Virus record (IMG/VR): IMGVR_UViG_3300034143_000002
DNA from: a virus
Reading direction: 5' to 3' (one strand)
Length of the DNA: 57,778 bases
Shown: piece after piece, positions 1,995-24,205 of the stretch
Layout of the letters: each line of letters opens with the position of its first letter
How positions within the stretch are numbered: the stretch's first letter is position 1
Made by a program: the position numbers and the translations under genes
The notes under the pieces: generated by a model
What the model was told of the DNA's origin: nothing
Database searches by the model: none
What the model saw: the letters and a program-made list of their open reading frames with translations, nothing else

Positions 1995-4148
1995 CTAAAT
2001 CGTCCTCACTAAATCAAACTCAATCTGATCCAGCCCCGGACGCACGCCACCAATCGGCGTAGTGCCTGGCCGCTCGCTGGGCCCGCCGCCGGGGTTGTCT
2101 TCAGCACCGCTGCCGGGCTGTGGCGGCGCTTGTGTCGAATCTTCCAACCGGTCGTAGTAATCCACCGGATAAGCCTGCGCTTCGATCACAACCTTCAGAT
2201 CGGACTGGCGCTGGAAGCTCATGATGCGGAAATACTCGAAGGGCTCATCTTCGATCTCATGTGATACGACCTTGATGACTTGATACTGGTGCAGTTCGAG
2301 AGCGTAGGCGTACCATGTGGTGAAAGTGACTCTCAGGTTGTTCTTCAGGCCGCCCTGATCGAACTCTCCAAGATCGAGGAGCAGATTACCGACACGTACA
2401 GCTTCGCCGAGATTAGTGATCCCCAGTGCAGAATATTTCTTCTCGATGACCCGTATCGAAGTATCCCCGAGGGCCTTCCCTGCTTTTAACTGCTGCGGTT
2501 GGTCGCTGAAGGTTAAAGGGCGCTCGACGTTGCCATGCGAGGCGTCCTCAAAGGTCAACACAATCTGGTTTGCTAATTCACCGTCGCTGATAGCTGATCG
2601 CTTGACGGAAGTAATCTCGGCGGTGCCCAGCTTTTCAAAGACGATGTTTCGATCAGGGCCGTAATCTGTGAAGACGGGGATGCTGTCGTCAATTACCTGG
2701 CGCTCGAGCGGCAGGACTCTCCACTTACCATGGTGCTCGAAAGGAAGCGTGAAGCGACCGAAGAGGCAGATGTCGTTGATCTGCTGCTGGGCCGTGCGCT
2801 CTGTCAACTCGGCCACAAAGGTTGAGCGAGTGCCGGTGAAATGGTTGCCGTTAGCGTCGTTGTAGCCGACCTGCTCACTGCACCAATTTGCCAGATAAAT
2901 GAAGTCGCTCATCACGAAACGAACCGGATCGAGCTTATGACCCCAGCGAGGCTCACGGATCACGTCAAGCAAACACCAAGCCCGGATGATCGTGTACTGC
3001 TCTGTGAAGGTGTCCTGATCCGTGTAGACGCGAATCTCATCCCGGCCTTCGACCGTGCATTCTCCGTTCAGGTTTCCGGGGCCATAGCCAGCGGGGTTGA
3101 CGGGGCCGTAGACCGCGAAGAAATGTGCCGTCCGGCTGTAGTTGCCGATGCCGGGAGAAAAGCCCGTCCTGCCCTGCCCTCGTTCGCCTCGTCGCACGTT
3201 GAGGTGCTCGAAGCCGATCAAAGCGCCGTTGACCTTGCAGCTCGTCACTGACTTGAGACGCCCTTCGCCGATCCTGAAGAGCACGCGCACGAAGCCCTGA
3301 TCAGGGTGATTAGTATTGAACTGAGGGGTATAAGCGAGCAGCTCCAGTTGACGCGCTACGCGCGGGCCATAATGCACGCGCAGGGCTTGCTTCAGATTAG
3401 TCTCATTGCCTTTGCTCGTAGCTAAAAGCGCCGGGCCTTTGGTCTGGTTGTTAATTAGAGATTCAATGACCGTATCGAATCCCAGGTAGAAAATGTCTGT
3501 GCCATGGCGAGCGACACACTCTGCGCGAGAGGTGGCAATCGTGGTGAAGGGCTGGCCACTGCCGTTGAGTTGACCCGTGACGCCGCCGAGATGGCGGTCA
3601 TACGGGCAATCATTCGCCAGGCATTGCTCCTGATCGGTCAGAAGCCCGCCGAAGATCACAGCATGGCATCCTGCAACGGCACGGCGACTCGGCAACGGCA
3701 GAAGAGCAGAGCGGAAGCCCGAAGCGGCGGTCGTCTTGAACATGCCGCCCCCGGCCCTCTGCGGCGTGCGCAAGTGTCCTGACCATTCCGATACAAGTAA
3801 ATCAACCTGCGGAAAGTAGTAAAAAACCTCAACCTTGCTGCCTTCACCATGCGCTCTAAAGAGCCGGGAAATTTCACGATCCCTGATCTCCGAAAAGGTA
3901 AGGGATATTTGCTCATCGGCAATGGAGCTGGTGCGATTGATCGGAAGGAAGTTGGAGCCGACCAGCCTGGCCTCAACCGTGAGGGTCAGCGCGGCATAGT
4001 CCGGCAGTTCATTGAGAGCCCTGGCCGCATAGTATTTCGTGCCGTCAGGCGCGGGCCAGTAGACAGCCACGATCTCCGAGACCTGCGGTCTCGCAATGGC
4101 TCGCAATGCCGCAAGCTTCGTCTGGTCAGTTGTGCTCTCGATACTCAT
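1995..4148 (-). CDS. Tail tip/hub protein (717 aa), N-terminal region lambda gpL-like
   Basis: 4-nt overlap with the gpM-like gene. N-terminal third has gpL-style layout with a Cys cluster (CHAVIFGG..CLANDCPY..C). Size and position fit a tip/central-fibre protein. Confidence 0.55.
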   Translation of the reverse strand: MSIESTTDQTKLAALRAIARPQVSEIVAVYWPAPDGTKYYAARALNELPDYAALTLTVEARLVGSNFLPINRTSSIADEQISLTFSEIRDREISRLFRAHGEGSKVEVFYYFPQVDLLVSEWSGHLRTPQRAGGGMFKTTAASGFRSALLPLPSRRAVAGCHAVIFGGLLTDQEQCLANDCPYDRHLGGVTGQLNGSGQPFTTIATSRAECVARHGTDIFYLGFDTVIESLINNQTKGPALLATSKGNETNLKQALRVHYGPRVARQLELLAYTPQFNTNHPDQGFVRVLFRIGEGRLKSVTSCKVNGALIGFEHLNVRRGERGQGRTGFSPGIGNYSRTAHFFAVYGPVNPAGYGPGNLNGECTVEGRDEIRVYTDQDTFTEQYTIIRAWCLLDVIREPRWGHKLDPVRFVMSDFIYLANWCSEQVGYNDANGNHFTGTRSTFVAELTERTAQQQINDICLFGRFTLPFEHHGKWRVLPLERQVIDDSIPVFTDYGPDRNIVFEKLGTAEITSVKRSAISDGELANQIVLTFEDASHGNVERPLTFSDQPQQLKAGKALGDTSIRVIEKKYSALGITNLGEAVRVGNLLLDLGEFDQGGLKNNLRVTFTTWYAYALELHQYQVIKVVSHEIEDEPFEYFRIMSFQRQSDLKVVIEAQAYPVDYYDRLEDSTQAPPQPGSGAEDNPGGGPSERPGTTPIGGVRPGLDQIEFDLVRTI

Positions 4149-4552
4149 ACGGCGCGTTCTCGCCTCTGCTGCAATGAAAGCCCGGTGGAGAACAGCTTGA
4201 TCATGAACATGTCAAAGCTGAGCGTGTGCTCTACGAACTTCGCCAGGTAATCCTGGTTATCTCGCGGGCACGTAATCCAGAAGCTGGAATTCCCTTCAGC
4301 TTTTCGTCTGACAAAGAAGTCCCAGAGATAATCAGCTCTGGATTCAATGGTGAAAGTGCCGCCCTGCGTAGAGCGATCGAGCACACCAGGCAGCACTTTG
4401 AATACAAGTTTCCATGCGCGCGTGCCTTCGCTCGACCCGACAAGCGCCGAATCTTCGTAGCCATCGCCGAAGCTGGCTTCGAGAATGTCGAAGCCGATCA
4501 CGCATGAAAGGCCGAAGGAACCGATGACCTCTAATCTCTCGTAATCCGGCAT
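4145..4552 (-). CDS. Minor tail protein, lambda gpM-like
   Basis: SFGDGYEDSA matches the RFGDGYSQRA signature of lambda gpM. Immediately follows the tape measure (1-nt overlap). Confidence 0.6.
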   Translation of the reverse strand: MPDYERLEVIGSFGLSCVIGFDILEASFGDGYEDSALVGSSEGTRAWKLVFKVLPGVLDRSTQGGTFTIESRADYLWDFFVRRKAEGNSSFWITCPRDNQDYLAKFVEHTLSFDMFMIKLFSTGLSLQQRRERAV

Positions 4553-7500
4553 CAGCTCATCCCCATGTTTCTACCCAGTTGACCGATGAAGCTGGCATCA
4601 CTGGTGCTTGTCGCGAGCACGGCTGCACCCACCGCGCCGGGATTCTCTTCCGCTCCTATCGCCAGGACTTGACCTGCCGGCATTGAGCTGATCCGTGCGA
4701 TTTGCTCAGCGAGCTGACCGAGCACTCCCATGATCGCGGTCACACCGATGCTCGAAGATCCGCCGCCATTGCTCGAAGATGAGCTTTGAGAGCCACTGCT
4801 CGCAGGAACATAGCCACCATCCAGGCGCTGCACCGGCGCGCGCGGAACAACTACAGCATCGCCGCTATTGAGCGCATCCATTGCGTCAACACCGACGCGC
4901 TCTGTGGCGTTTGAATTGAGAACGTATTCGCCGCCGTCAAGGACAGCATGAACCCAATCGCGCCCGCGACGCGCAGCATCAACAAATCCTCCCGATAGTC
5001 TTCGGACAAAATTATTTTCTTTGGACGCGGCATCGCCGTACTCTTTATTGAGGGTCAGCTTGCTGTTCTGGCCTGTGCTTTCGGCATAGGCTTGAATGAT
5101 TTCTTTCGAGGGCTCTAGCCTGATCGTTTCGAGCAAGTGTGCTTTCACCTTACCGCGCCCGAATGACTGCTCTCCGATAGCTTTTATTTCGGAGAGCGTT
5201 TTCATATCTTTCACATCAACGGCATACTCTCCCTTAATAGCTTCGCGCAGCTTTTTCTCAGTGCCATTGCGGAAGTGACGCCAGAGCAGAAGCCCGCCAA
5301 CGACAGCACCAACAGCTACAGCAGTCCACGGATTTGTTAGCAAGGGAGTGAGTGAGCTAAACATGCTGCCGCCACCAGCCGCAGCGCCGCCCGCGCCCGC
5401 TCCACCTGCTGCCGCTCCCGCTCCGCCGGCAGCAGCACCACCGCCGCCGAAGATCATGCTCATCATTCCAGCACTCGAGCCTGCCGTTGCAGCTCCAACG
5501 CCAGCGAAAGCATTTCCCGCCGCCGCCGCACCACCAGCAGCACCACCGCCGCCGAAGATCATATTCATCAAACCAGCGCTTGAACTTGAAGTGGCCGCTC
5601 CAACATTGGCAAAGGCGTTTCCACCCGCAGCCCCGCCTGCCATTGCCGGGGTTGCCGCGCCACCCCCACCGGAGTTGAAAAGGTTTTTGAAGCTGTTGAA
5701 AATGTTGCTAAGAGAGAAGCCGCCGCCCTTGCCGCCGCCGTGCCCTAACATCCGATCATTCCCTTCCTCATCCTCTGAGCGCGGGTTGAACAGCGATTGC
5801 AGATATTTACTAACCTTGCTCTTAATGAATTCTTTGACGATGTTAAGGAACAGGTCAGCGAAGCCCTTCTCAATTCGCTTGAGCATACCGATTACGCCGC
5901 CCTCGAATGAAGTCAGAGAGCTTCCTAAAATATCGCCTATGGAGTCGGAAACTTCTTTGACTTTCTCGCGGTATGCGACGAGCGGGCGCTGCATGATTTC
6001 AGCCATCTTGTTTTGATGGCCCACTTCTTCAAGCTGCATACGCTCTCTGAATAGTGCTTCTATTTCGGCTTTTTCTTGAGCCGTTTTACCTTGAAGATTT
6101 ACACTCCCCTGCGCCGCGAGAATATCTATCTGCGCTTGGCGGTTTCTTAGAATCTCACTCGCAACGTCCTGAGCTTGACGCTGTTGTTTTATGTAGGCGG
6201 GACTTGCGCCAAGCCGTTCTAGCTGGTCAATCTTCGCGTTTCCTATTGCAATCGAAAGATTGAGATTTTCCATCTCAATGCTGCGGAGTTGGTTCGCATG
6301 TTGGCGTGCGCTCTCAATATCCTTCTGCCGCCCGGCGGCGATGCGTCGGTCTGCTTCTTCCTGAGTCGCAACCTGCTTTTCGGTGATGCCCTTAATCTGG
6401 TCGTTGATTCGGCGGAATTCTTGGACGTTTACGTTCGCGGCATTTTCGATGCCTGCAATCATGTTTCCCGCCGCATCGTAAACCACGCCGACGGCTTCAA
6501 ATAAAGCCCGCTCTTCTGAGGTCAGCGCTTCAAGGCGGCGATTGAACGCCGCCGTCTGAATATCAAGAATTTTCTTCTCTAAACCCTCTTGCGTGATGAT
6601 GCGATTCTCTGCAATCGCGCGGTAGGTTTCGATTGATCGTTGATCTATACTTTCACCGATGGACAAAAGGCTCTCTTGGTGCGCGCGTAATGATTGAATC
6701 TCTGTCTTTGCCGCGTCATCATCAATCCTTTGGACGTTTCGGTTGTACTCACTGCGAGCCGCCGCCGCCTTCTCGGTCAATTCCTTAACCTGTAATTCCC
6801 TATCCCGGCCCTTTGAAAGCTTCTGCGCGGCGACAAGCTCAGCATCAACAGTCGCCAGCTTAGAATTGAGCAACGCCTGCTCCGCCTCCTTTGATTGGCG
6901 AACAAACTCATCAAGGTTGATAGATTGCTGGTCGTATGACCTCTTGGCTGCCTCTGCGGTTTCACGATAGACGCGCTCAGCAGTTTTCTGTTGAAGCTCC
7001 AAGCCCTTGATTGCGGCGCGCGTGGCGGCATCCTTTTCGGACGCGCCGCCCTTACCTCCCCCGCCGCCACCACCACCGAGCCCCGCTAGATTCACGTCCC
7101 GCACAGGCCCGCCGCCCCGCATGATCTGCTCTATCTCTTCTTTTGAAAGTTTATGACCGCCAGCGGCGCGCACGTCGCGCTCTAAGGGGTCTGCTCCTGC
7201 CGTGCGCGCAATCCAACTCCAAGCCTCTTTCGCGGTTTGTCCGGCGCGGTAAGCCCAATTAGCGATTGATTGCAGCTTGACAATCATCTCGCTTCCATTA
7301 TTGGAAACCGCCTGCAACTCAGACCTGAAAGTTGCTATGTCGCCAGTGGCTAGAGCGAAGCCCGCCGAAAGCAGATGAAGCACAGAACTTGCAAGGTAAG
7401 CGATGACAACCTGCAACTGAATGAAGGGCGCTATCAGAGTAACGATGCCGCCATACAAAACCTCGCCAGCCTTAACCACCGCGCCGATAGAATCAATAAC

Positions 7501-8883
7501 CCCTAACAAAGTTCGGTTTACAATGTCGCCTACTTCATCAACGCTTGAACCGCTGCGCTGTAACTCCGCCTCAAACCTGTTGATGTAAGCCAGCATCGTC
7601 GGCAGCATCTTCACTCCGATGTTGGCCGTAACGATTGAGAGCCTTGCTTCAAGCTCCGTCAGCTTGTCGCCAAAGGCATCGGCAGCCCGCGCGCCATCAT
7701 TCGACATAACGAGCCCCGCGTCCTTCATCCCCTTAATGAAAGCCGGAAGGTCGCCGCCCGTCTGCTTGATAAGCGCTAAAATATCCTTGCCGCCCTTGCC
7801 AAAAAGCTGCATGGCAAGGGTCGTTTGCGCGTAGCCTTCGGGCATCCGAGAGAGTACGCGGAAGGCGTCAACAAGCGCCGTCTCGTTGTCTTTGGTAGAG
7901 ATTGCAAGGCGGTCTAAGACGGCTATCTGCTTCTTGCCGCCCTGCTCCGCCTGCCCTAAAAACTTATCGAAATATCCGAGCCCTGTGGTAAGCCCTTCAA
8001 GGCTTCCGCCGCTCTGGTCGGCGGCCAATTTGAGAGCGCCCACAGTCTCCGCCGCGAAGTTGATCTTGCTTGAAGCGTCGTAGATTTCACCGCCGACCTT
8101 TGCGGAGTGCTGCGCGAGTTTGACAAAGCCAAGCCCTAAAGCCCCGACCATGAGCGTAAGGGTAGCGACAACGCCAAGCCCTACCCCCACAGGCCCGGCC
8201 CATGCTCCTATCACACCGCCGAAGCTTGTCGCTTCCGCCTTCGCTGCCGTGAGGCTCTTGGTAGTGCGGGCGATTGCGGTTTCAGCGCCCGAAGCCGCGC
8301 GCTCGGCTTGTGTAATCGCCTTCTGTGATTCACCAATTAAATTGTTTGAGTAGGTGCTAAGCCGCCGCGCCTCCTTCGCGCTCTGTGCTACCTCTTTTTC
8401 AAGTTGCGCCGGGCTGAGCCCTCGCATGTGCGACACAAGGGCGTCAACCTTTCGGGCTTCCTCTCTTTGCTTAAATTCCTCTGCCGTTAATCGCCTGATT
8501 TCTCTGGCCTGCTTTTGCTTCGTTGCGATGATTCGAGCCGATTCTTTGACAACGCTCTCCGCTTCGTGCTTTAAGCTTGCTGTAACAGAAGCGGTTGACT
8601 CCTTGACTTCTGCCGCCGCCCGCGCCGCAGACGCGCCAGAGCGCGCGTAGCTTCTATCAATCGTGATGGTAGCTTTGGCGACTTCATCCGACGCGCGAAC
8701 GGCGGCGCGCACCTGAGCGTCGGATATTCCCCCTAAGCTACCCGAACCACCAAGAGCCTTTCGGGCGCTTTTTTCCGAGTCGGCGTCTATCGCCGCGAAG
8801 GCGCTCCTGATGCGCTTCACCTCGGCTAACGGCTGCGAGCCGTCCGCTTTGATGGTTAAAGCTATGAATCTTTTTCCCGCCAT
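4552..8883 (-). CDS. Tape measure protein (1443 aa)
   Basis: Largest helical/coiled ORF in the tail module, with hydrophobic segments and a Gly/Ala-rich tandem duplication (NAFA.VGAAT..SSAG.M.MIFGGGGAA x2). Precedes the tip genes. Confidence 0.9.
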   Translation of the reverse strand: MAGKRFIALTIKADGSQPLAEVKRIRSAFAAIDADSEKSARKALGGSGSLGGISDAQVRAAVRASDEVAKATITIDRSYARSGASAARAAAEVKESTASVTASLKHEAESVVKESARIIATKQKQAREIRRLTAEEFKQREEARKVDALVSHMRGLSPAQLEKEVAQSAKEARRLSTYSNNLIGESQKAITQAERAASGAETAIARTTKSLTAAKAEATSFGGVIGAWAGPVGVGLGVVATLTLMVGALGLGFVKLAQHSAKVGGEIYDASSKINFAAETVGALKLAADQSGGSLEGLTTGLGYFDKFLGQAEQGGKKQIAVLDRLAISTKDNETALVDAFRVLSRMPEGYAQTTLAMQLFGKGGKDILALIKQTGGDLPAFIKGMKDAGLVMSNDGARAADAFGDKLTELEARLSIVTANIGVKMLPTMLAYINRFEAELQRSGSSVDEVGDIVNRTLLGVIDSIGAVVKAGEVLYGGIVTLIAPFIQLQVVIAYLASSVLHLLSAGFALATGDIATFRSELQAVSNNGSEMIVKLQSIANWAYRAGQTAKEAWSWIARTAGADPLERDVRAAGGHKLSKEEIEQIMRGGGPVRDVNLAGLGGGGGGGGKGGASEKDAATRAAIKGLELQQKTAERVYRETAEAAKRSYDQQSINLDEFVRQSKEAEQALLNSKLATVDAELVAAQKLSKGRDRELQVKELTEKAAAARSEYNRNVQRIDDDAAKTEIQSLRAHQESLLSIGESIDQRSIETYRAIAENRIITQEGLEKKILDIQTAAFNRRLEALTSEERALFEAVGVVYDAAGNMIAGIENAANVNVQEFRRINDQIKGITEKQVATQEEADRRIAAGRQKDIESARQHANQLRSIEMENLNLSIAIGNAKIDQLERLGASPAYIKQQRQAQDVASEILRNRQAQIDILAAQGSVNLQGKTAQEKAEIEALFRERMQLEEVGHQNKMAEIMQRPLVAYREKVKEVSDSIGDILGSSLTSFEGGVIGMLKRIEKGFADLFLNIVKEFIKSKVSKYLQSLFNPRSEDEEGNDRMLGHGGGKGGGFSLSNIFNSFKNLFNSGGGGAATPAMAGGAAGGNAFANVGAATSSSSAGLMNMIFGGGGAAGGAAAAGNAFAGVGAATAGSSAGMMSMIFGGGGAAAGGAGAAAGGAGAGGAAAGGGSMFSSLTPLLTNPWTAVAVGAVVGGLLLWRHFRNGTEKKLREAIKGEYAVDVKDMKTLSEIKAIGEQSFGRGKVKAHLLETIRLEPSKEIIQAYAESTGQNSKLTLNKEYGDAASKENNFVRRLSGGFVDAARRGRDWVHAVLDGGEYVLNSNATERVGVDAMDALNSGDAVVVPRAPVQRLDGGYVPASSGSQSSSSSNGGGSSSIGVTAIMGVLGQLAEQIARISSMPAGQVLAIGAEENPGAVGAAVLATSTSDASFIGQLGRNMGMS

Positions 8884-8920
8884 TTATGTTAGCCGCGCCC
8901 CGCCGATGAAAGACTAATCT

Positions 8921-9203
8921 GGAATGGGATTTAATTATTTGGAGGGGTTCCGCGTTGACGCACCCCGCCAGAATGAGCATAGAATAATCAAGGATTTAAT
9001 TACTTAGAGGGTGCAACGCCCCTGCCCAAATGAATTATATAGAGCCGAATCGCATACCTTTTTGGAGGGTGTTACGCCGCAACACCTACAGCCCCGAAAC
9101 GAGCATACACGTCTCAGGAATTTAATTTTTAGAGGGTGTGAGACATTGCCCTCACGCATCTAGGGTAGGGTGTTTTGGAGTCTAATTTTTGGAGGGTGTG
9201 AGT
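8921..9203. repeat. Five degenerate tandem units (58-67 bp period) carrying the ~26-nt module-boundary motif
   Basis: Cores ATTTAATT-N-TTNGAGGGTG at ~8927-8951, 8992-9016, 9059-9075 (partial), 9117-9143 and 9179-9203. GAGGG(T/G) anchors at 8942, 9007, 9065, 9132 and 9192. Confidence 0.8.
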
Positions 9204-9458
9204 ATGAAGAATAGAAAAACGATCATCGCAGGTATGTTCCTGCTTTTGCTGTTTGTAGTCGGATGGACTGGATACGGGCAGAAGGCGGCAAGGCAGCAAT
9301 GGGAATATAAAATGCTGTACTTGCCGGATGAATCAAGCGAAGAGGCGAGCCTGAAAACTTTGAACACACTAGGCGCGGAAGGGTGGGAGGTTATCGAGTT
9401 TCACCAAAGGGGAATTGACACCTTGAGCGGTCAATATCTTTTCAAACGATCAAAATAA
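9204..9458 (+). CDS. Membrane-anchored small protein, DUF4177-like (moron-like)
   Basis: GGAGG RBS plus ATG 9204. N-terminal TM/signal IIAGMFLLLLFVVGW. WEYKMLYL...LNTLGAEGWEVIEF...YLFKR resembles DUF4177. Own hairpin downstream. Confidence 0.55.
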   Translation: MKNRKTIIAGMFLLLLFVVGWTGYGQKAARQQWEYKMLYLPDESSEEASLKTLNTLGAEGWEVIEFHQRGIDTLSGQYLFKRSK

Positions 9459-9460
9459 AT

Positions 9461-9486
9461 AAGGGGCAAAGTTCCCTCTGCCCCTT
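9461..9486 (+). terminator. Stem-loop after DUF4177-like gene
   Basis: AAGGGGCA-N10-TGCCCCTT, 8-bp perfect stem 3 nt after the stop; no clear U tract. Confidence 0.45.
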
Positions 9487-9560
9487 CCCTGCCTCGCCTT
9501 GCCGTGCTAGCCAAGCCTTACCTCGCCTGACCAAGCCAAGCCTAACCTCGCCATGCCTTG
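9482..9560 (-). repeat. Pentanucleotide-periodic array a (CNNGG units on minus strand)
   Basis: Minus strand reads caagg catgg cgagg ttagg cttgg cttgg tcagg cgagg taagg cttgg | ctag | cacgg caagg cgagg caggg aaggg. 15/15 units end in GG. Confidence 0.9.
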
Positions 9561-9566
9561 TAAAGC

Positions 9567-9782
9567 TCAACGCTTTTTCTTGCTTGCATCTTCGGTGGGC
9601 CGTCCGCCGCGATCTGGTATGAACGCTTCAACCTCGCCCCTCTTCACGAAACGGCGTCCAGCAATATCAACCGTGCTTAGCTTTGTCTGCCTAATTAAGT
9701 GATTGATGGCTTGGCGCGTTACTCCGCGAAGCTGTGCGGCCTGAGCGACTGTGAGTAGTTCGTCGGGGTCAATCTTTACCAT
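9567..9782 (-). CDS. HTH DNA-binding protein (excisionase/MerR-type)
   Basis: LLTVAQAAQLRGVTRQAINHLIRQTKL...IAGRRFVKRGEVEAF. Divergent from the cassette promoter. Confidence 0.6.
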   Translation of the reverse strand: MVKIDPDELLTVAQAAQLRGVTRQAINHLIRQTKLSTVDIAGRRFVKRGEVEAFIPDRGGRPTEDASKKKR

Positions 9783-9839
9783 GCCTCAGAGTATACACAA
9801 CCACTTTCCGCTTGACAAGAAATAAAACTAACTTACCTC

Positions 9840-9868
9840 TTGACAAACGGAAAGGGGTTCTTTATAAT
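9840..9868 (+). promoter_or_regulatory. Consensus sigma70-type promoter
   Basis: TTGACA (9840-9845), 17-nt spacer, TATAAT (9863-9868). A second TTGACA lies at ~9812-9817. Confidence 0.6.
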
Positions 9869-9906
9869 CCTTTTGTCAGTTGGAAAACAGATAAGGAGCA
9901 AATCAG

Positions 9907-10053
9907 ATGAACAGCACAACCAACAAAACGATCATCACGATTTCAACGACGGACGCCAAGCGGGTCAACAAATACGCCATCAAAAAGAGGGTAGAGCGAG
10001 ACGCCTTCGGACGCGCTCAGGTTGCGGAGTACGTGAGGGGTATTCGCCTGTAG
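9907..10053 (+). CDS. Small RHH-like regulator candidate (48 aa, below ORF-track cutoff)
   Basis: AGGAG 8 nt before ATG 9907. MNSTTNKTIITISTTDAKRVNKYAIKKRVERDAFGRAQVAEYVRGIRL has a beta-strand-then-helices pattern. Stop TAG at 10051-10053. Confidence 0.4.
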   Translation: MNSTTNKTIITISTTDAKRVNKYAIKKRVERDAFGRAQVAEYVRGIRL

Positions 10054-10062
10054 AAGCGAAAC

Positions 10063-10097
10063 GGGACAGGCGAGCGTTTGGGCCGCTCGCCTGTCCC
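10063..10097 (+). terminator. Strong GC hairpin (attenuator/terminator candidate)
   Basis: GGGACAGGCGAGCG-TTTGGGC-CGCTCGCCTGTCCC, 14-bp perfect stem between the RHH-like ORF and 10131. Confidence 0.55.
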
Positions 10098-10130
10098 TTC
10101 ACACCATTTACCACTTGAGAGGGGAAAACG

Positions 10131-10508
10131 ATGCGACAAAAGTATAACACGAAAGCGTTGCCACCGCCGGAAAGTCGGCCAGTCAGCGAATTCATCAGAG
10201 AGCCCGTCAAGGAATGGTCAACGCTTCCCATCACAGAAGAACGGGCGCAGGAACTCGTTGACCTGCTCACCGATGACCTCAACGACCACACGACGGACGC
10301 CATCATTGAGTTAATAGCGGGCATCATGCCGCAAGCGAGCCCTGACGATGAAACCGAGAGTGACAGGTGGCAAAGATTCATCGCGGGCTCTGCGGCCATC
10401 CTTCACGCCTTCCGCCACTCGTCGCGCTGTCAAAACGCGCTTGGCGACCACATCATCCACTTGAAAATCGGTAAGATTAAAGAGAAGGAAAGCGAGGGCG
10501 AGCGATGA
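10131..10508 (+). CDS. Acidic hypothetical protein A (125 aa)
   Basis: Paralogous to the next ORF (I[TS]..[ER]A.EL...D..ND.....A.I.L..GIM). ATGA overlap with it. Confidence 0.6.
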   Translation: MRQKYNTKALPPPESRPVSEFIREPVKEWSTLPITEERAQELVDLLTDDLNDHTTDAIIELIAGIMPQASPDDETESDRWQRFIAGSAAILHAFRHSSRCQNALGDHIIHLKIGKIKEKESEGER

Positions 10509-10879
10509 AAGGAGACGAAGGGAAGCTTGACGCGCTCTGGCGTATGCAGCAGATAAGGGACAAAAACGACGACTATAAAGCCATTTCGAGGGATGAAGCC
10601 GCCGAACTCGCTGAAACCATCGTTGACTATGATAACGACGTGAGAGCCCACGCCCTTATCACGCTGCTTAACGGCATCATGTGCGTTGTATTTTCAGGGG
10701 AAGGCGGGCGCTCACTCGCGGAAGATTTGGTATGGTGCGCCACGCGCCGCGCCTACACGCTGTCGCTGCATTGTAATTACTCGCTTTCTGAATTCGCCAG
10801 CTTAGACCCTAAGAACGCACGCGACAAGCGCGTGCTGGAACACGAATACGACGAGGACGAAAAGAAGGAGCAACAATAA
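10505..10879 (+). CDS. Acidic hypothetical protein B (124 aa), paralog of A
   Basis: Shared motif with 10131..10508. TAATG overlap with the 207-aa gene. Confidence 0.6.
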   Translation: MKGDEGKLDALWRMQQIRDKNDDYKAISRDEAAELAETIVDYDNDVRAHALITLLNGIMCVVFSGEGGRSLAEDLVWCATRRAYTLSLHCNYSLSEFASLDPKNARDKRVLEHEYDEDEKKEQQ

Positions 10880-11502
10880 TGTCAAATATAGTCAAAGCAA
10901 AAGTCACGATCAAAGGCGTCCGCCCGCTCTTACTCCATCACTTCGGGCCTGACGCTCTACCGCTTGAGAAGCAGGAGAAAACAGGAGTCGCCGGAAACGA
11001 CCCCGAAGAATGGCGCAAGACCGCGCTCGTCACGAAAGACGGCCAACTCTACCTAGAGCCCACATACATCTTTGCCTCTATCAGAGACGGCGCGAAGTAC
11101 ACGAAGAAAGGTAAGGGCTCAATTCAATCCACAGTGGCGGCAACGCTTCAAGTCTTGGATAACGCTGTATTGATTGACCGCCACTTTCCCGGCTTCCCTA
11201 ATGGTCATGCTTTTGATCTGGCGACGGCAGAGCCGCCGCCGCGAGACAAGGACGCGCCTGTTTACTTGGACGTTCAATCTGTGAGGAATCCGACAACCAA
11301 AGGGCGCAACGTGCGCTACCGTGTCGGAGCGTCAGTGGGATGGTCTTGCTCGTTTACGATTCTCTTTGATAAGACCATCGTTGACCGAAACACCATGCAA
11401 ACGGTGCTAGGCGACGCGGGCGTGCTTGTCGGCGTCGCTGACGGGCGCTCAATCGGCTTCGGGCGCTTCACGGTTGAGAGTTTTGAAGAGATTAAGTCTT
11501 GA
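10879..11502 (+). CDS. Hypothetical 207-aa protein with RAMP-like features
   Basis: KVTIKGVRPLLLHHFG, LEPTYIFASIRDGAKY, and the C-terminal helix plus G-rich loop VLGDAGVLVGVADGRSIGFGRFTV resemble RAMP (Cas7/Csm3-type) motifs. Unverified. Confidence 0.6.
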   Translation: MSNIVKAKVTIKGVRPLLLHHFGPDALPLEKQEKTGVAGNDPEEWRKTALVTKDGQLYLEPTYIFASIRDGAKYTKKGKGSIQSTVAATLQVLDNAVLIDRHFPGFPNGHAFDLATAEPPPRDKDAPVYLDVQSVRNPTTKGRNVRYRVGASVGWSCSFTILFDKTIVDRNTMQTVLGDAGVLVGVADGRSIGFGRFTVESFEEIKS

Positions 11503-11507
11503 GTTTT

Positions 11508-11606
11508 CCCGGCACGGCAGGGCTTGGACGGGCAGGGCATGGGTTGACTTGGAATGGCCCGGCGAGGCTTGTCAGGGCTAGGTGAGGCATGGAAGGCAAG
11601 GCAAGG
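11508..11606 (+). repeat. Pentanucleotide-periodic array b (CNNGG units)
   Basis: cccgg cacgg caggg cttgg acggg caggg catgg gttga cttgg aatgg cccgg cgagg cttgt caggg ctagg tgagg catgg | aagg | caagg caagg. 15/17 in-phase units end in GG. Confidence 0.9.
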
Positions 11607-11611
11607 TTCTT

Positions 11612-11914
11612 ATGCCAAAAAAGAGACAGCCAATAGAAATCTGGCGAGAGACGCGGCGCAGGGTGTTAGAGCGCGACGGCTATAAATGCGTCCGGCCATC
11701 CTGCGGCGCGCCCCTCACGGAAAAGACCGCACACATTGACCACATCGAATCAGGTAAAAATGCGACCAACGAAATGAGCAACTTGCGCTCGCTATGTCGG
11801 CGCTGCCATGTGCTGCGCGCCGACCCCCGGCACAGAGGCATGATTGCTGGCGCTCTCAAGGCCGGAATAATCGGCCCTGACTGGCGCTCGCAAGTTTGGG
11901 ATGATGATTCTTGA
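11612..11914 (+). CDS. HNH endonuclease
   Basis: RRRVLERDGYKCV..C......HIDHI.....N...NLRSLCRRCH. ORF-track GTG 11582 lies inside array b, so ATG 11612 is preferred. Confidence 0.8.
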   Translation: MPKKRQPIEIWRETRRRVLERDGYKCVRPSCGAPLTEKTAHIDHIESGKNATNEMSNLRSLCRRCHVLRADPRHRGMIAGALKAGIIGPDWRSQVWDDDS

Positions 11915-11919
11915 TTTTA

Positions 11920-12019
11920 CCCGGCGGGGCGAGGCGAGGTCAGGCTGCGCGAGGGTTGGCTAGGTCAGGCGAGTCTCGGCGCGGCGAGGCCCGGCAAGTC
12001 TCGGCACGGCAAGGAGGGG
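11920..12019 (+). repeat. Pentanucleotide-periodic array c (20 in-phase CNNGG units)
   Basis: cccgg cgggg cgagg cgagg tcagg ctgcg cgagg gttgg ctagg tcagg cgagt ctcgg cgcgg cgagg cccgg caagt ctcgg cacgg caagg agggg. 17/20 end in GG. Confidence 0.9.
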
Positions 12020-12035
12020 CGGCTATGCCGCCCCT
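12015..12035. terminator. GC hairpin between convergent genes
   Basis: AGGGGCGGC-TAT-GCCGCCCCT, 9-bp stem between the HNH end and the end of 12038..12391. Confidence 0.5.
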
Positions 12036-12037
12036 AT

Positions 12038-12391
12038 TCAACCCGCCAACGCCGATGCCGCAAACATCTCGAATATGGCCGTTACTCTGGCCTCATGCGC
12101 TCTCCTGTAGGCGGCTTCTATCTTATCCCACAAAATAACCAACTCCCATTCTTCGCTCGTTAGCTCATTCAAATTCAGCGGCTTTCCTGAGTTGCGCTCG
12201 TCAATCAATCGTTGTATTCGATTGACGACAGCATCTTCAAGGTTTTCCTCTGCCTTTGCGGAGTACATTTTAGGGCAGACGGGGCAAAAGCCGTCCGCAC
12301 CAGCCTGATAGAACTCGCAAGCTTCCTGACCTGGGCACTGCTCGTCTTCGGATACCGGGTTGTGTAGCTTCTCGAGGCGGGCCGCTATCAA
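12038..12391 (-). CDS. Hypothetical protein (117 aa), tail-chaperone position
   Basis: Position only (after the major tail candidate, before the tape measure once the cassette is removed). Confidence 0.45.
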   Translation of the reverse strand: MIAARLEKLHNPVSEDEQCPGQEACEFYQAGADGFCPVCPKMYSAKAEENLEDAVVNRIQRLIDERNSGKPLNLNELTSEEWELVILWDKIEAAYRRAHEARVTAIFEMFAASALAG

Positions 12392-19601: not shown

Positions 19602-20990
19602 CTAGCCGACGCTAAGCGTGCCCGCGCGCGGCAGAGGCTGGAGGCTGTAATCCTCAAGCGCCTTCACGGCGACCTCGCTCGTAGCTTTTTCTAGCTCAAG
19701 CAATTCCGCAGCTTTCTCCGCCGCATCGAGCGCGGATGCGAGCTGCTGTGTCAATTCGGCCTTCTCTAACTCCAGAGCGGCCATCTTCGTTTCCAACTCG
19801 GCGGCTTTTGTTACGGCTTCGGCGCTCGCGGCGACTGACGCGCTCTTCATGGCTTCGTCGCCCTCGGCTTCCTTATGCGTGCATGCCGCACCGGCTTCGA
19901 CGAGGCAGTCGTGCGCCTTGTCGAGCAATCCCTGATCGGCACCGCTGTTGCGCGCTCCCGCCTTGTGCGAGAGCCCGATCACGCGCGAGACCGCGTCGTA
20001 GTAGTACCAATCGTCGTAGTAGGACGAAGTGCCCTTTTCGGCAGCTTCGGCAATCTCTTCCGCGATCCACGCCTTCATCGTCGCGGCGAACTCGTCCACG
20101 GACGTGTTGGCTTCCGTGACCAGCTCCGCCTGCGCTGCGGCATCCTTGCCGCGCGCCTCGCGACGGAGCCGCGAAACAACCGACGAAAGCGAATCAACGT
20201 ACATATAGAAGTTGTTCTGCTTGTCGTTGAGCACGTCGGCGAACATCGCCTTCGCGGCGCTCGCGCCCGGCTGTGCAGATTTGTTGTTTTCGGCACCCGT
20301 TATTTCCGCCATTACAGTCTCCTTAAAAGATTTTGCGGTCTGCACCCATGCCGTCTGATTGCAGGGAATGCCGACCATCGAGGATTCGATATAAAAGACT
20401 TTGGTGATCGTGCGACCGCCGTCCGCGCGCTTCTTCCATTCGAGAATGAGGACGGTGACGGAGACACCCAGCTTCAGCTTCGACTTCTGAAGCATGTTGG
20501 TGATCTGCACGGCGCGCGGGTTCTCGTCCGCACCCACCGGCGTGATCGAGAGATCAAGGCAGGAGAGCAGTTCATCCTGGCCCGCGATGGGGCTATATTC
20601 CTTGCGCCTGACGATCTCTGCACCGGCAACCTTCCCGTAGACATCCTCCGGCACGTCGTATTCATGATTGAGGAAGATCGTGGTGCCGACAGCTGCGGCC
20701 TTCATCTGCTCGATGGCTGAGAGGTCGAAGTCATCGCCGGATAGATCAATGGCGGTTGAGGAGGCTGTGACCGGAATCGTGCCGTCGGCGCTGGCGCTCT
20801 TAAACTTCGGAACATCGGTCGAGAAGAACTTGGCAACTGGATAACCGAGAGATTTCAGGAGCTTTCCGGCGCTCTTTTTCTGCGCCTTAGCCTCACGAAA
20901 AACGGCCTGCAAATCGAAGTCTTTGACCTCGAAATCAGGCGTCCAGCGAGGAATGGCCGTCGTGTGCTTATCTTCCGTCTCTTCGCTCAT
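19602..20990 (-). CDS. Prohead protease fused to scaffold-like coiled coil
   Basis: GTTIFLNHEYDVPEDVYGKV resembles the HK97-family protease motif. C-terminal AAELETKMAALELEKAELTQQLASALDAAEKAAELLELEK is coiled coil. Confidence 0.65.
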   Translation of the reverse strand: MSEETEDKHTTAIPRWTPDFEVKDFDLQAVFREAKAQKKSAGKLLKSLGYPVAKFFSTDVPKFKSASADGTIPVTASSTAIDLSGDDFDLSAIEQMKAAAVGTTIFLNHEYDVPEDVYGKVAGAEIVRRKEYSPIAGQDELLSCLDLSITPVGADENPRAVQITNMLQKSKLKLGVSVTVLILEWKKRADGGRTITKVFYIESSMVGIPCNQTAWVQTAKSFKETVMAEITGAENNKSAQPGASAAKAMFADVLNDKQNNFYMYVDSLSSVVSRLRREARGKDAAAQAELVTEANTSVDEFAATMKAWIAEEIAEAAEKGTSSYYDDWYYYDAVSRVIGLSHKAGARNSGADQGLLDKAHDCLVEAGAACTHKEAEGDEAMKSASVAASAEAVTKAAELETKMAALELEKAELTQQLASALDAAEKAAELLELEKATSEVAVKALEDYSLQPLPRAGTLSVG

Positions 20991-21856: not shown

Positions 21857-22024
21857 TTAATTGAGGCTAATGGACATCCAGAGACGTTCATCAACGATCT
21901 GCTCAACGCTCATTTCGCTTCGACAGTCGCCACAATCGCAGACATAGCCGGTTTTCCATGCAATCTCCTGCATCGCACCGCACACTCGGCAGTAGAGTTT
22001 AAGTCTCCGAAACCCGTTGCTCAT
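21857..22024 (-). CDS. Small zinc-ribbon protein (55 aa)
   Basis: ORF track 21857..22198 overlaps the portal gene. Internal ATG 22024 follows AAGGGAG. CRVCG...CDCGDC. Confidence 0.4.
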   Translation of the reverse strand: MSNGFRRLKLYCRVCGAMQEIAWKTGYVCDCGDCRSEMSVEQIVDERLWMSISLN

Positions 22025-23944: not shown

Positions 23945-24205
23945 TTATGCCTCCGCTATGCGAACCCAACCCCTCTCGCGCATCGCCTCTTTATCCAGTC
24001 GCTCAAACACGCTCAAGGAATCATACGATGATGGCACACCGATAATTACTAGATCGGTGATCCCCTGCTCGCCAAAGTGCTCTTTGAGTTGCGCCGCCAC
24101 ATTCTCAAATTGAGAGAGAGGGAGGGTGAGGTGAATTATCAGCACGTCTCCGCTTTTGACAGAGATTGCTTCATTGATGATGACGTTTATTTTCTCTTCA
24201 GCCAT
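23945..24205 (-). CDS. Hypothetical protein (86 aa)
   Basis: 8-nt overlap with the terminase large subunit end. Confidence 0.45.
   Translation of the reverse strand: MAEEKINVIINEAISVKSGDVLIIHLTLPLSQFENVAAQLKEHFGEQGITDLVIIGVPSSYDSLSVFERLDKEAMRERGWVRIAEA

What the first reader, a model, noticed from the sequence alone, without database searches (positions are those of the whole stretch)
9189..12035. Opposite-strand accessory cassette splitting the tail operon (anti-defence / moron-like architecture)
From terminase to fibre, the minus-strand late genes are contiguous except here. About 3 kb of mostly plus-strand genes sit between the chaperone-position genes and the tape measure, which are normally adjacent. 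The cassette contains the following. (1) A self-contained DUF4177-like membrane gene with its own hairpin. (2) A divergent HTH gene. (3) A textbook TTGACA-N17-TATAAT promoter (9840-9868). (4) A 48-aa RHH-like ORF with an AGGAG RBS. (5) A 14-bp perfect GC hairpin (10063-10097). (6) Two paralogous acidic ~125-aa proteins and a 207-aa protein, all translationally coupled (ATGA, TAATG). (7) An HNH nuclease. A strong promoter, a small autoregulator and small acidic proteins inserted in a structural module is how acr-aca and other anti-defence loci look.
Basis: partly seen in the sequence, partly recalled or inferred. Interest (0 to 1): 0.75.

Follow-up and report, generated by a model that had tools for sequence, protein, structure and literature searches.

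The report
Phage VIPR RNA-guided interference locus

Summary
The anti-defence (acr-aca) reading is not supported.

- **The 207-aa protein is a Vipr.** It has a RAMP (Cas7/Csm3-like) fold and matches the solved SUSP1 Vipr protein (PDB 36pp). The residues that read GGY are conserved.
- **Three repeat arrays flank the genes.** They have period 5 (GGY-NN)n with 11, 16 and 17 variable units, at 9560-9461 (-), 11508-11606 (+) and 11920-12035 (+). Nothing comparable occurs in the other 55 kb. They fit the published vrRNA definition.
- **vipr, HNH and arrays travel together.** Across about 100 related loci, HNH is present in 85 of 105. Arrays of at least 9 units lie within 1.5 kb of vipr in 68 of 94 distinct loci, a 40-fold enrichment.
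- **The 1-nt-skip targeting code works in this clade.** Related guides match a rival phage's portal gene (28/30) and terminase gene (23/24). They also match this window's own vipr (17/18) and HNH (18/20).
- **Targets of the window's own guides were not found.**
- **The remaining genes are locus-specific.** These are HTH_17, the 48-aa ORF, two mildly acidic near-orphan proteins and the DUF4177-like gene.

The cassette sits next to the tape-measure gene in at least 13 unrelated phages. I file it as a new member of a known kind.

The parts
9204..9458 (+). Small membrane protein gene, DUF4177-like (sub-threshold). It is neighbouring cargo, not VIPR core.
   Evidence: Pfam DUF4177 E 2.6e-4, 21.6 bits against a cut-off of 25. 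An N-terminal hydrophobic helix is visible in the sequence. It has no relatives in about 100 VIPR loci by tblastn. A DUF4177(weak) gene does lie next to vipr in L124.
9461..9486 (-). Intrinsic terminator hairpin ending the minus-strand HTH_17/vrRNA-A transcript. It may act in both directions.
   Evidence: Terminator scan: 11-bp stem with tail ATTTATTTTG on the minus strand. RNA fold dG -20.6, z -3.3.
9487..9560 (-). vrRNA-A candidate. It has a leader TTTAC, 11 variable YNNGG units (NN = AA AT GA TA TT TT CA GA AA TT TA) and then constant terminal units ..CACGGCAAGG...
   Evidence: Sequence read. The period-5 detector finds 10 chained GG units. It starts 6 nt after the HTH_17 stop codon. The same layout, an HTH gene followed by a minus-strand array, occurs in L005/L064, L009, L023, L027 and L126.
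9567..9782 (-). HTH_17 (excisionase/MerR-like) DNA-binding protein, divergent from the vipr operon. Probably the locus regulator.
   Evidence: PF12728 27.7 bits. phrog_66 at 7e-7. HTH_17 homologues sit at the same position in L001, L004, L123 and L126. In 20 other loci a Cro/C1-type HTH takes this position.
9790..9868 (.). Divergent promoter region: P(+) 9840-9868 for the vipr operon and P(-) 9818-9790 for HTH_17/vrRNA-A. It contains two 16-nt direct repeats, ACTTnCCnCTTGACAA.
   Evidence: Promoter scan gives 12/12 and 10/12. The repeat is D10.
9907..10053 (+). 48-aa basic ORF of unknown function; first gene of the plus-strand operon.
   Evidence: ORF with an AAGGAG SD. No hits in Pfam, PHROG or PADLOC. 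No relatives in related loci.
10063..10097 (.). Perfect 14-bp GC-rich hairpin between the 48-aa ORF and the next gene. It may be an attenuator or an RNA stability/processing element.
   Evidence: dG -31.7, z -6.3. L001 has a hairpin at the same position, after its first small ORF (sequence).
10131..10508 (+). 125-aa mildly acidic helical protein of unknown function, from a small fast-evolving family. Not VIPR core.
   Evidence: The word-index search finds only itself. Full HMMER finds 11 relatives, E 1e-20 to 3e-4. These relatives occur paired with HTH_17 but without vipr. The AF2 model is poor, pLDDT 44.
10505..10879 (+). 124-aa acidic protein, possibly a distant paralogue of the 125-aa protein. 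Its reading frame is translationally coupled to both neighbours.
   Evidence: Only itself among 5.8 billion proteins. Weak links to the 125-aa protein and to ORFs at matching positions in L004, L005 and L001. Overlaps ATGA and TAATG.
10879..11502 (+). vipr: a 207-aa RAMP protein, the vrRNA-binding and DNA-targeting subunit.
   Evidence: A profile of the family hits PDB 36pp 'SUSP1 Vipr protein' at E 6.7e-9; the single sequence hits it at 7.5e-5. AF2 pLDDT 86.6. Foldseek top hits are Csm3/Cas7 at E 3e-8, probability 1.0. phrog_4652 at 6e-16. There are 1571 homologues. H20, R148, D188 and R190 align with SUSP1 H17, R138, D177 and R179.
11508..11606 (+). vrRNA-B candidate. It has a leader TTTTC, 16 variable units and a constant end GGCATGGAAGGCAAGGCAAGG(TTC). 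That end also supplies the SD of HNH.
   Evidence: The terminal motif GGCAAGGCAAGGTTC recurs in L001, L005, L026 and L029.
11612..11914 (+). HNH nuclease, 100 aa. It is the conserved VIPR accessory (vap-type) gene of this clade.
   Evidence: PF01844. It is present 2-800 nt downstream of vipr in 85 of 105 loci at about 37-74% identity. D43, H44, N57, H66, C26 and C62 are conserved in at least 95% of 77 distinct homologues.
11920..12035 (+). vrRNA-C candidate. It has a leader TTTAC, 17 variable units, a constant GGCACGGCAAGG and a terminal hairpin at 12015-12035.
   Evidence: Hairpin dG -21.5.
8926..9202 (+). Four to five ~26-nt boxes (GGAnTTTAATTnTTnGAGGGTG) in the gap between the tape-measure start and the cassette. 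Their function is unknown and they may not belong to the system.
   Evidence: (family D2).

Best explanation
**What it is.** Region 9461-12035 is a VIPR (Viral Interference Programmable Repeat) locus of the nuclease-associated kind.

**Transcription (inferred).**
- The strong promoter at 9840-9868 drives one plus-strand operon: 48-aa ORF, hairpin, two locus-specific acidic proteins, vipr, vrRNA-B, HNH, vrRNA-C.
- The divergent promoter drives the HTH_17 regulator and vrRNA-A, ending at the terminator 9486-9461.

**Targeting (from the published SUSP1 and P. fulva work, inferred here).**
- Vipr protomers polymerise along each vrRNA, one per GGYNN unit.
- Each protomer holds the GGY bases and presents the NN dinucleotide.
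- The filament reads double-stranded DNA by the 1-nt-skip code. The target reads NNx NNx..., and x usually falls on the codon wobble position.

**Consequence (inferred).** Binding silences transcription. In this clade the invariably linked, catalytically intact HNH nuclease probably also cuts the bound DNA.

**Likely targets.** They are genes of competing phages of the same host. This is shown for related loci and only inferred for this one.

**The other genes.** HTH_17, the 48-aa ORF, the two acidic proteins and the DUF4177-like gene are variable cargo or regulators, not core.
For: **Protein**
- The family profile matches the solved SUSP1 Vipr at E 6.7e-9. The match covers the thumb Arg and the G-loop GxGRF.
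- The confident AF2 model (pLDDT 86.6) finds Csm3/Cas7 RAMPs at E 3e-8.
- The residues corresponding to the four that read GG/Y in SUSP1 are invariant (R148, R190) or nearly invariant (H20; D188, which varies D/N) in the family (paper 10.64898/2026.04.26.720927).

**RNA**
- The window has three arrays with 10-17 chained GG units. The maximum in 100 simulated windows was 7.
- A logo over 2159 units from 149 arrays gives position 3 = C/T in 86% of units. Positions 4 and 5 are variable.
- Arrays are 40-fold enriched within 1.5 kb of vipr. They are present there in 68 of 94 distinct loci.
- Guides are not shared, even with loci whose Vipr is 85% identical.

**Linkage**
- vipr and HNH are the only proteins conserved across the neighbourhoods, in 105 and 85 loci respectively.
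- The HNH catalytic residues are intact.

**Code**
- In an all-against-all search of clade guides, only the 1-nt skip exceeds the shuffled control: 17 hits against 5. Skips 0, 2 and 3 stay at control level.
- Specific in-frame matches, with the skipped base on the wobble position:
  - L026 guide to the L020 portal gene, 28/30.
  - L082 guide to the L036 terminase gene, 23/24.
  - L004 guide to this window's vipr, 17/18.
  - L123 guide to this window's HNH, 18/20.

**Published description.**
Against: - No target was found for the window's own three guides.
  - Nothing above shuffled controls appeared in the window or in about 110 related loci.
  - Six exact-seed scans of IMG/VR and one of JGI metagenomes gave either nothing or AT-rich chance hits.
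- Expression and processing of the vrRNAs are not shown. No separate promoters are predicted for arrays B and C.
- The invariant structured 3' tail described for SUSP1 is only loosely paralleled here.
- W178 of SUSP1 is a glycine in this protein.
- Arrays B and C carry several degenerate units, and at 16-17 units they reach or exceed the top of the published 9-16 range.
- The published text links nuclease-bearing VIPR types to cellular defence islands. This locus is in a phage.
- HNH cleavage of VIPR targets has not been demonstrated anywhere.
Confidence: 0.87

Rival explanations
1. This is an anti-defence (acr-aca-like) locus. The strong promoter and small regulator drive small acidic inhibitor proteins that block host defence systems.
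For: - A perfect promoter sits next to a divergent small HTH gene.
- Two small, mildly acidic, fast-evolving near-orphan proteins are present.
- The cassette lies inside a structural module.
- Relatives of the 125-aa protein are paired with HTH_17 elsewhere, without vipr. That pair therefore forms an independent small module of unknown function.
Against: - The conserved content of the cassette is a RAMP protein, an HNH nuclease and guide arrays.
- No cassette protein matches an Acr or Aca family, or anything anti-defence, in Pfam, PHROGs or PADLOC.
- The 207-aa protein is 65-86% identical across many phages. That is unlike Acr proteins.
- The acidic proteins are absent from most VIPR loci.
Confidence: 0.08
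2. The HNH gene is a free-standing homing or packaging endonuclease. The G-rich period-5 tracts are structural DNA/RNA elements such as G-quadruplexes, terminators or recombination sites. Neither has anything to do with RNA guidance.
For: - Small HNH genes are common selfish inserts between conserved phage genes.
- The GG-N3 repeats could form two-tetrad G-quadruplexes.
- Two arrays end in hairpins.
Against: - HNH is linked to vipr in 85 of 105 loci from many phyla.
- The arrays show a pyrimidine preference at position 3 and hypervariable NN. G-quadruplex or terminator function does not need either.
- NN strings of related arrays match rival phage genes in frame under the 1-nt-skip rule, at 28/30 and 23/24.
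Confidence: 0.03
3. This is a degenerate or minimal CRISPR-Cas remnant: a solo Cas7-like gene left from a type III/IV system that has lost its array and other cas genes.
For: The Foldseek top hits are Csm3/Cas7.
Against: - The window contains no CRISPR repeat-spacer array and no other cas genes.
- The only sequence match among solved structures is Vipr, not Cas7.
- The protein is flanked by pentanucleotide arrays, as VIPR requires.
Confidence: 0.02

Closest known systems
VIPR systems (Viral Interference Programmable Repeat). The reference member is Escherichia phage SUSP1 Vipr/vrRNA, type II, PDB 36pp. Sources: bioRxiv 10.64898/2026.04.26.720920 and 10.64898/2026.04.26.720927.
   Same: - A ~20-kDa RAMP protein with the thumb Arg and G-loop residues conserved.
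- Flanking arrays of YNNGG units with constant GGY and hypervariable NN.
- Phage-encoded, with no CRISPR array.
- The 1-nt-skip code holds in this clade, with the skipped base on the wobble position.
- Some guides aim at other VIPR loci.
- No self-targeting was found.
   Different: - The partner gene is an HNH nuclease, not the DNA-binding vap1 of SUSP1.
- There is no SUSP1-type pseudoknot tail. Instead there are semi-constant terminal units, GGCA(A/C)GGCAAGG, with or without a hairpin.
- One vrRNA is transcribed divergently together with an HTH_17 gene.
- Extra locus-specific genes lie between the regulator and vipr.
- W178 of SUSP1 is replaced by Gly.
- The host lineage is Acidobacteriota (Pyrinomonadaceae-like), inferred from the closest named homologues.
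Nuclease-associated VIPR types (types III-V in the preprint). The HNH-bearing one is probably type III, judged by elimination from the text and the legend of fig. S21.
   Same: - Vipr plus a predicted nuclease vap.
- In many related loci a single array follows vipr-HNH.
   Different: - The preprint describes types III and V as enriched in cellular defence islands and acting for the host.
- This locus, and 60 IMG/VR relatives, sit in phage genomes, often inside morphogenesis modules.
- The type assignment could not be checked because the classification tables are not available here.
Class 1 CRISPR backbone subunits (Csm3/Cmr4/Cas7).
   Same: - RRM core, thumb hairpin and glycine-rich loop (Foldseek E 3e-8, TM about 0.5).
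- Oligomerisation along a guide RNA, known for Vipr from the cryo-EM paper.
   Different: - 9-17% sequence identity.
- No repeat-spacer array, no Cas6/Cas5/large subunit, no adaptation genes.
- The guide is a pentanucleotide repeat read discontinuously.
acr-aca anti-CRISPR operons.
   Same: A strong promoter, a small HTH regulator, small variable proteins and a position inside a phage structural module.
   Different: - The conserved genes are an RNA-guided effector and a nuclease, not inhibitors.
- There is no homology to any Acr or Aca family.

Membership tests
VIPR system | Vipr protein with a RAMP fold (RRM core, thumb, glycine-rich loop) | tested here: met
   The AF2 model has pLDDT 86.6 and pTM 0.83. 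Foldseek against PDB gives 126 hits at E<=0.001, and the 50 listed best hits are Cas7-family (Csm3/Cmr/type VII) backbone subunits of CRISPR effector complexes; best E 2.7e-8. The C-terminal motif is GxADGRSIGFGRF.
VIPR system | Sequence homology to an experimentally characterised Vipr | tested here: met
   The only PDB sequence hit is 36pp 'SUSP1 Vipr protein'. E is 6.7e-9 with the family profile and 7.5e-5 with the single sequence.
VIPR system | Residues that hold the GGY bases (SUSP1 H17, R138, D177, W178, R179) | tested here: met
   These align to H20, R148, D188, G189 and R190. R148 and R190 are invariant, and H20 and D188 (D/N) are nearly invariant, in 41 homologues. W178 is not conserved.
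VIPR system | Tandem YNNGG repeats (at least 4 units, typically 9-16) in the intergenic DNA flanking vipr | tested here: met
   Three arrays have 11, 16 and 17 variable units. The maximum chance chain was 7 in 100 simulated windows. No comparable array lies elsewhere in the 57.8 kb.
VIPR system | GGY conserved and NN hypervariable among related loci | tested here: met
   Over 2159 units, position 3 is C 54% and T 32%, and positions 4-5 are near-uniform. The window's guides have no match above chance in the arrays of other loci (skip 3).
VIPR system | Invariant, structured 3' tail after the repeat tract | tested here: inconclusive
   The terminal units tend to be GGCA(A/C)GGCAAGG(TTC) in close relatives. 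Across 144 arrays only 18 carry the strict motif, against 6 in mid-array windows. Arrays A and C end in stable hairpins and B does not. No covariation test was done.
VIPR system | Linked accessory (vap) gene acting on DNA | tested here: met
   HNH lies downstream of vipr in 85 of 105 loci, with the catalytic D-H...N...H and the Zn cysteines conserved.
VIPR system | Guides recognise targets by the 1-nt-skip rule (NNx) | tested here: inconclusive
   The rule holds for the clade. The 1-nt skip gives 17 hits against 5 in the control, and other skips stay at control level. In-frame matches are 28/30 to a portal gene and 23/24 to a terminase gene. For the window's own three guides no target was found.
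VIPR system | vrRNAs are expressed and form an RNP with Vipr; the RNP binds or represses DNA | not testable with these tools
   This needs small-RNA sequencing, pull-downs and reporter assays.
VIPR system | Assignment to one of the seven published types | not testable with these tools
   The type tables and trees (data S4, fig. 5, fig. S16) are not held as text. The HNH partner points to a nuclease-bearing type.
acr-aca anti-defence operon | Homology of the small proteins to known Acr families, or of the HTH to Aca families | tested here: not met
   There are no such hits in Pfam, PHROGs or PADLOC. The HTH is a generic HTH_17.
acr-aca anti-defence operon | Inhibition of a host defence system | not testable with these tools
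   This needs plating on defended hosts.
CRISPR-Cas | Repeat-spacer array and further cas genes next to the RAMP gene | tested here: not met
   The tandem-repeat and repeat finders show no CRISPR-like array. The only conserved neighbours are HNH and the pentanucleotide arrays.

The most novel reading that the evidence does not exclude
The HNH-type VIPR cassette may be more than a silencing device. It could be a mobile, RNA-guided 'homing' or cassette-replacement element.

- **Location.** It lodges at a preferred slot beside the tape-measure gene, and beside portal or terminase genes in other phages.
- **Guide specificity.** Its guides aim at rivals' vipr and HNH genes and at the neighbouring morphogenesis genes.
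- **Proposed mechanism.** HNH would cut co-infecting rival genomes near that slot. Recombination with the homologous flanks would then copy the cassette in.
- **Role of the acidic proteins.** The fast-evolving acidic proteins between the regulator and vipr would act as inhibitors of rival VIPR complexes.
Probability: 0.12. Interest if true: 0.8.

Novelty: new member of a known kind. Interest (0 to 1): 0.5.

Why it matters
VIPR was described only in 2026, and experiments exist for a few proteobacterial type II systems. This locus adds four things.

- **An independent check of the definition.** It satisfies the published features (RAMP protein, GGY/NN arrays, 1-nt-skip code) in a distant, nuclease-linked clade from soil phages of Acidobacteriota-like hosts.
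- **Nuclease-bearing VIPRs are common in phages.** They often sit inside morphogenesis operons and repeatedly next to the tape-measure gene. The preprint's text does not mention this placement.
- **Concrete phage-against-phage guide/target pairs.**
  - Guides match rival portal and terminase genes.
  - One pair of phages (L020 and L026) target each other; the L026-to-L020 match lies in a portal gene.
  - Rivals' guides match this phage's own vipr and HNH.
  - The attacking phage L004 appears to escape its own guide by a Ser-codon switch and an Ile-to-Val change.

  These pairs could be tested directly.
- **A warning for annotation.** A cassette with a strong promoter, a small HTH and small proteins is easily misread as acr-aca if the non-coding arrays are ignored.

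Tried and rejected
**DNA and RNA library searches**
- blastn of the cassette against the GenBank phage collection found nothing.
- Rfam, permissive, over 8800-12300 gave no ribozyme or known RNA.

**Target searches for the window's guides**
- A mismatch-tolerant local search with skips 0-3 was run against the window and about 110 loci. Nothing exceeded shuffled controls.
- Six exact-seed scans of IMG/VR were run.
  - Four gave no hit.
  - The guide A seed gave 5 hits that do not extend beyond the seed.
  - The guide C seed (units 7-15) hit one in-frame site shared by two contigs (L110/L111), and the exact match extends to units 7-16. Those contigs are 35% GC, the match does not extend further, and no other guide converges there. 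I judged it chance.
- One scan of JGI metagenomes with guide A gave 4 hits, all non-coding and 26-32% GC. I judged these chance.

**The acidic proteins**
- The word-index protein search found nothing for either acidic protein.
- The AF2 model of the 125-aa protein was too poor (pLDDT 44) to use for a fold search. The idea that it is a Cas11-like small subunit therefore remains untested.

**Other attempts**
- A search for relatives of this phage through its tail-tube protein, to find a cassette-free allele, found none in IMG/VR.
- Other assemblies of the same phage (L121, L122) are 100% identical, so they say nothing about guide turnover.
- A universal rule that the cassette is always next to a tape-measure gene was rejected. 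Among 31 tested large neighbouring ORFs, 11 are tape measures. The others include portal, terminase, ligase and methyltransferase genes.
- PADLOC hits (mad1 for the HTH, ZorE/DpdF for HNH) are generic domain matches, not system membership.

Full report
**Observation**

The window is a phage genome, or most of one. Its late genes are on the minus strand: terminase large subunit 24198-26009, portal 21999-23432, major head 19602-20990, tape measure 4552-8883 and a J-like tail protein 1995-4148. The stretch from 8884 to 12037 lies between the tape-measure start at 8883 and the 117-aa gene at 12038-12391. It carries mostly plus-strand genes.

- HTH_17 gene at 9567-9782(-).
- A 12/12 sigma-70 promoter at 9840-9868, with a divergent 10/12 partner at 9818-9790.
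- A 48-aa ORF with an AAGGAG.
- A perfect 14-bp hairpin at 10063-10097, dG -31.7, z -6.3.
- ORFs of 125, 124 and 207 aa joined by ATGA and TAATG overlaps.
- An HNH gene, whose conserved start is the ATG at 11612.

Some of the descriptions are weaker than stated.
- DUF4177 is below Pfam's cut-off.
- The two "paralogues" are related only at E about 0.3-0.5.
- They are only mildly acidic, with pI 5.2 and 4.8.
- The 207-aa protein is basic.

**What was missed**

Reading the intergenic DNA showed G-rich tracts with a 5-nt period. A scan of the whole window for GG dinucleotides spaced by 5 found only three strong places, all inside the cassette.
- 9461-9560 on the minus strand, directly after the HTH_17 stop codon.
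- 11508-11606, directly after the 207-aa gene.
- 11920-12035, directly after HNH.

The GG chains are 10, 15 and 17 units long. In 100 simulated windows of the same first-order composition the longest chain was 7.

Each array begins a few bases after a TGA stop codon with a leader TTTAC or TTTTC. It continues as YNNGG units and ends in near-constant units, GGCA(A/C)GGCAAGG. Arrays A and C then run into stable hairpins. The hairpin of A (9461-9486) has its U-tract on the minus strand. It is therefore the terminator of the HTH/array transcript, not of the DUF4177-like gene.

**Identity of the 207-aa protein**

- Pfam has nothing for it. PHROGs places it in phrog_4652, of unknown function.
- It has 1571 homologues. 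Many are 65-86% identical, and some come from Pyrinomonadaceae MAGs.
- A profile of 41 homologues hits exactly one solved structure, 36pp "SUSP1 Vipr protein", at E 6.7e-9. The single sequence hits it at 7.5e-5.
- An AlphaFold2 model is confident, with pLDDT 86.6 and pTM 0.83. Its best Foldseek matches are Csm3/Cas7 backbone subunits of type III and VII CRISPR complexes, at E 3e-8 and probability 1.0.

Two 2026 preprints describe VIPR systems. They report the following.
- A ~20-kDa ancestral RAMP protein, Vipr.
- vrRNAs made of 9-16 YNNGG repeats, with GGY constant and NN hypervariable.
- An invariant 3' tail.
- A vap accessory gene.
- Recognition of double-stranded DNA in which each NN pairs and every third target base is skipped.
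- Repression of competing phages and satellites.

The SUSP1 residues that hold the GGY bases are H17, R138, D177 and R179. They align with H20, R148, D188 and R190 here. R148 and R190 are invariant in the family, and H20 and D188 (which varies D/N) are nearly invariant. W178 is a glycine here.

**Test across related loci**

I fetched 60 viral (IMG/VR) and 41 genomic (GTDB) loci, plus several metagenomic contigs that encode relatives. The hosts named in the records span Acidobacteriota, Armatimonadota, Bacillota, Cyanobacteria, Chloroflexota and Chlamydiota.
- The only proteins conserved across the neighbourhoods are Vipr (105 loci) and the HNH protein (85 loci). HNH always lies 2-800 nt downstream of vipr.
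- The HNH catalytic and zinc residues are conserved in at least 95% of 77 distinct homologues.
- Period-5 arrays of at least 9 units occur within 1.5 kb of vipr in 68 of 94 distinct loci. Their density is 0.44 per kb there and 0.011 per kb elsewhere.
- In 2159 units, position 3 is a pyrimidine in 86%. My detector did not require this. Positions 4 and 5 are nearly uniform.
- The window's NN strings are not shared with any other locus, even those whose Vipr is 85% identical.

These results meet the published definition of vrRNA arrays. The invariant structured tail is only partly paralleled.

**The targeting code in this clade**

I converted every array of at least 10 units into its NN string and searched all loci with skips of 0 to 3.
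- Only the 1-nt skip exceeded the shuffled-unit control, with 17 windows of at least 18/20 against 5. Skips 0, 2 and 3 were at control level.
- At the stricter threshold of at least 19/20 there were 7 hits, against 0, 0 and 0 in three shuffles.

The individual matches are informative.
- The first array of L026 matches the portal gene of L020 at 28 of 30 positions, with the skipped base on the wobble position.
- An L020 array matches L026 at 19/20, so the two phages target each other.
- An L082 array matches the terminase large-subunit gene of L036 at 23/24, also in frame.

The window's own VIPR genes are also hit.
- An L004 array matches codons ADGRSIGFG of the window's vipr (11437-11463) at 17/18. 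L004's own vipr differs there by a Ser TCN-to-AGY switch and an Ile-to-Val change, scoring 15/18.
- An L123 array matches the start of the window's HNH (11615-11644, PKKRQPxEIW) at 18/20.
- The expected numbers of such hits on the window from shuffled guides are 0.05 and 0.4.

**Targets of the window's own guides**

None was found.
- Local searches gave nothing above shuffled controls and no self-target.
- Exact-seed scans of IMG/VR and JGI metagenomes gave either no hit or chance-like hits in AT-rich DNA.
- One 10-unit exact, in-frame match of guide C lies in 35% GC viral contigs. It does not extend and is not joined by other guides, so I treat it as chance.
This negative result is therefore weak.

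**The other genes**

- HTH_17 recurs at the same divergent position in the closest relatives. In 20 other loci a Cro/C1-type HTH takes its place. It is most simply the regulator of the locus.
- The 48-aa ORF has no detectable relatives.
- The DUF4177-like ORF has no relatives by tblastn in the other VIPR loci, but a DUF4177(weak) gene lies next to vipr in L124.
- The 124-aa protein has no relatives among 5.8 billion proteins.
- The 125-aa protein has 11 distant relatives by exhaustive HMMER.
  - One of them (P0124, seen on two contigs) is paired divergently with an HTH_17 gene but has no vipr nearby. One of those contigs (L118) also carries cellular-looking genes alongside.
  - Another is followed by a DUF1206 gene.
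- These genes are therefore variable cargo, and their function remains open.
- Base composition and GC3 of all cassette genes match the rest of the phage.

**Position**

- In the window, L001, L006 and L126, the cassette lies in opposite orientation between a tape-measure gene and the genes upstream of it.
- In L009, L011, L016, L019, L027, L031, L047, L069 and L123, a tape-measure gene follows vipr-HNH-array directly in the same orientation. L124 probably has the same layout.
- The tape measures belong to different PHROG families.
- In other loci the neighbour is a portal, terminase, ligase or methyltransferase gene, so the rule is frequent but not universal.
- The main text of the preprint and its supplement held here do not mention this placement.

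**Verdict**

The cassette is a VIPR locus of the HNH-associated kind, with three candidate vrRNAs. It is a new member of a kind described in 2026.
- **Mechanism.** The steps are taken from the published SUSP1 and P. fulva work and are inferred here.
- **HNH.** Cleavage by HNH is an inference from strict linkage and intact catalytic residues.
- **Type.** The type assignment, probably the HNH-bearing type III, could not be verified.

Noticed in passing
window 8926-9202: Four ~26-nt boxes GGAnTTTAATTnTTnGAGGGTG, plus a fifth TTTTGGAGGGTG near 9060, fill the 300-nt gap between the tape-measure start and the DUF4177-like gene. By eye, the boxes appear to be followed by short GC-rich inverted repeats (not tested by folding). 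The last box supplies that gene's Shine-Dalgarno sequence. The boxes are absent from the equivalent gap in L001. How the tape-measure gene is transcribed across or after the cassette is unclear.
   Followed up: partly
window 11437-11463 and 11615-11644: The window's own vipr (G-loop codons) and the start of its HNH gene are near-perfect 1-nt-skip targets of arrays in rival phages. L004 array @6628 scores 17/18 and L123 array @10615 scores 18/20. Both matches are in frame with the skipped base on the wobble position. L004's own vipr differs at that site by a Ser codon-family switch and an Ile-to-Val change.
   Followed up: yes
L020 1109-1153 and L026 7919-7948; L036 1121-1156: L026 and L020 carry guides against each other; the L026 guide matches the L020 portal gene at 28/30. 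An L082 guide matches the terminase large-subunit gene of L036 at 23/24. In this clade, guides aim at essential morphogenesis genes of other VIPR-carrying phages.
   Followed up: yes
L009, L011, L016, L019, L027, L031, L047, L069, L123 (co-oriented); window, L001, L006, L126 (opposite): The vipr-HNH-array module sits directly beside a tape-measure gene in at least 13 otherwise unrelated phages. Elsewhere it sits beside portal or terminase genes. The held text of the VIPR preprint does not mention this.
   Followed up: partly
L118 1853-2585 and L119 1742-2474: A divergent pair, HTH_17(-) and a relative of the window's 125-aa protein(+), occurs without any vipr gene; in L118 it lies beside cellular-looking genes. 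This suggests the pair is an independent two-gene module of unknown function.
   Followed up: partly
L124 11049-11276: A DUF4177(weak) small gene lies next to the VIPR module in a second phage, L124. It may be recurring cargo.
   Followed up: no
L004 5560-5880; L123 9180-9871; L001 9652-9954: Some close relatives carry a second HNH gene upstream of vipr. In L001 the ORF just upstream of vipr has a weak, sub-threshold RNase III domain hit (E 0.0025), which makes it a possible vrRNA-processing candidate.
   Followed up: no
window 11600-11614 (and L001, L004, L005, L026): The last constant vrRNA units (..GGCAAGG) lie 5-10 nt upstream of the HNH start codon. They look like its Shine-Dalgarno sequence, so Vipr binding to the unprocessed transcript could affect HNH translation.
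   Followed up: no
L110 1103-1132 and L111 8442-8471: Units 7-16 of guide C match exactly (20/20, in frame) a 581-aa ORF in 35% GC viral contigs. I judged this chance because of the composition mismatch, the lack of extension and the absence of convergent guides.
   Followed up: yes
window 192-278, 56686-57659, 56710-57167: 9-nt periodic repeats occur at both ends of the contig. A 240-nt tandem repeat lies inside the 1330-aa minus-strand ORF 53685-57677. The same repetitive gene may wrap around the contig ends.
   Followed up: no
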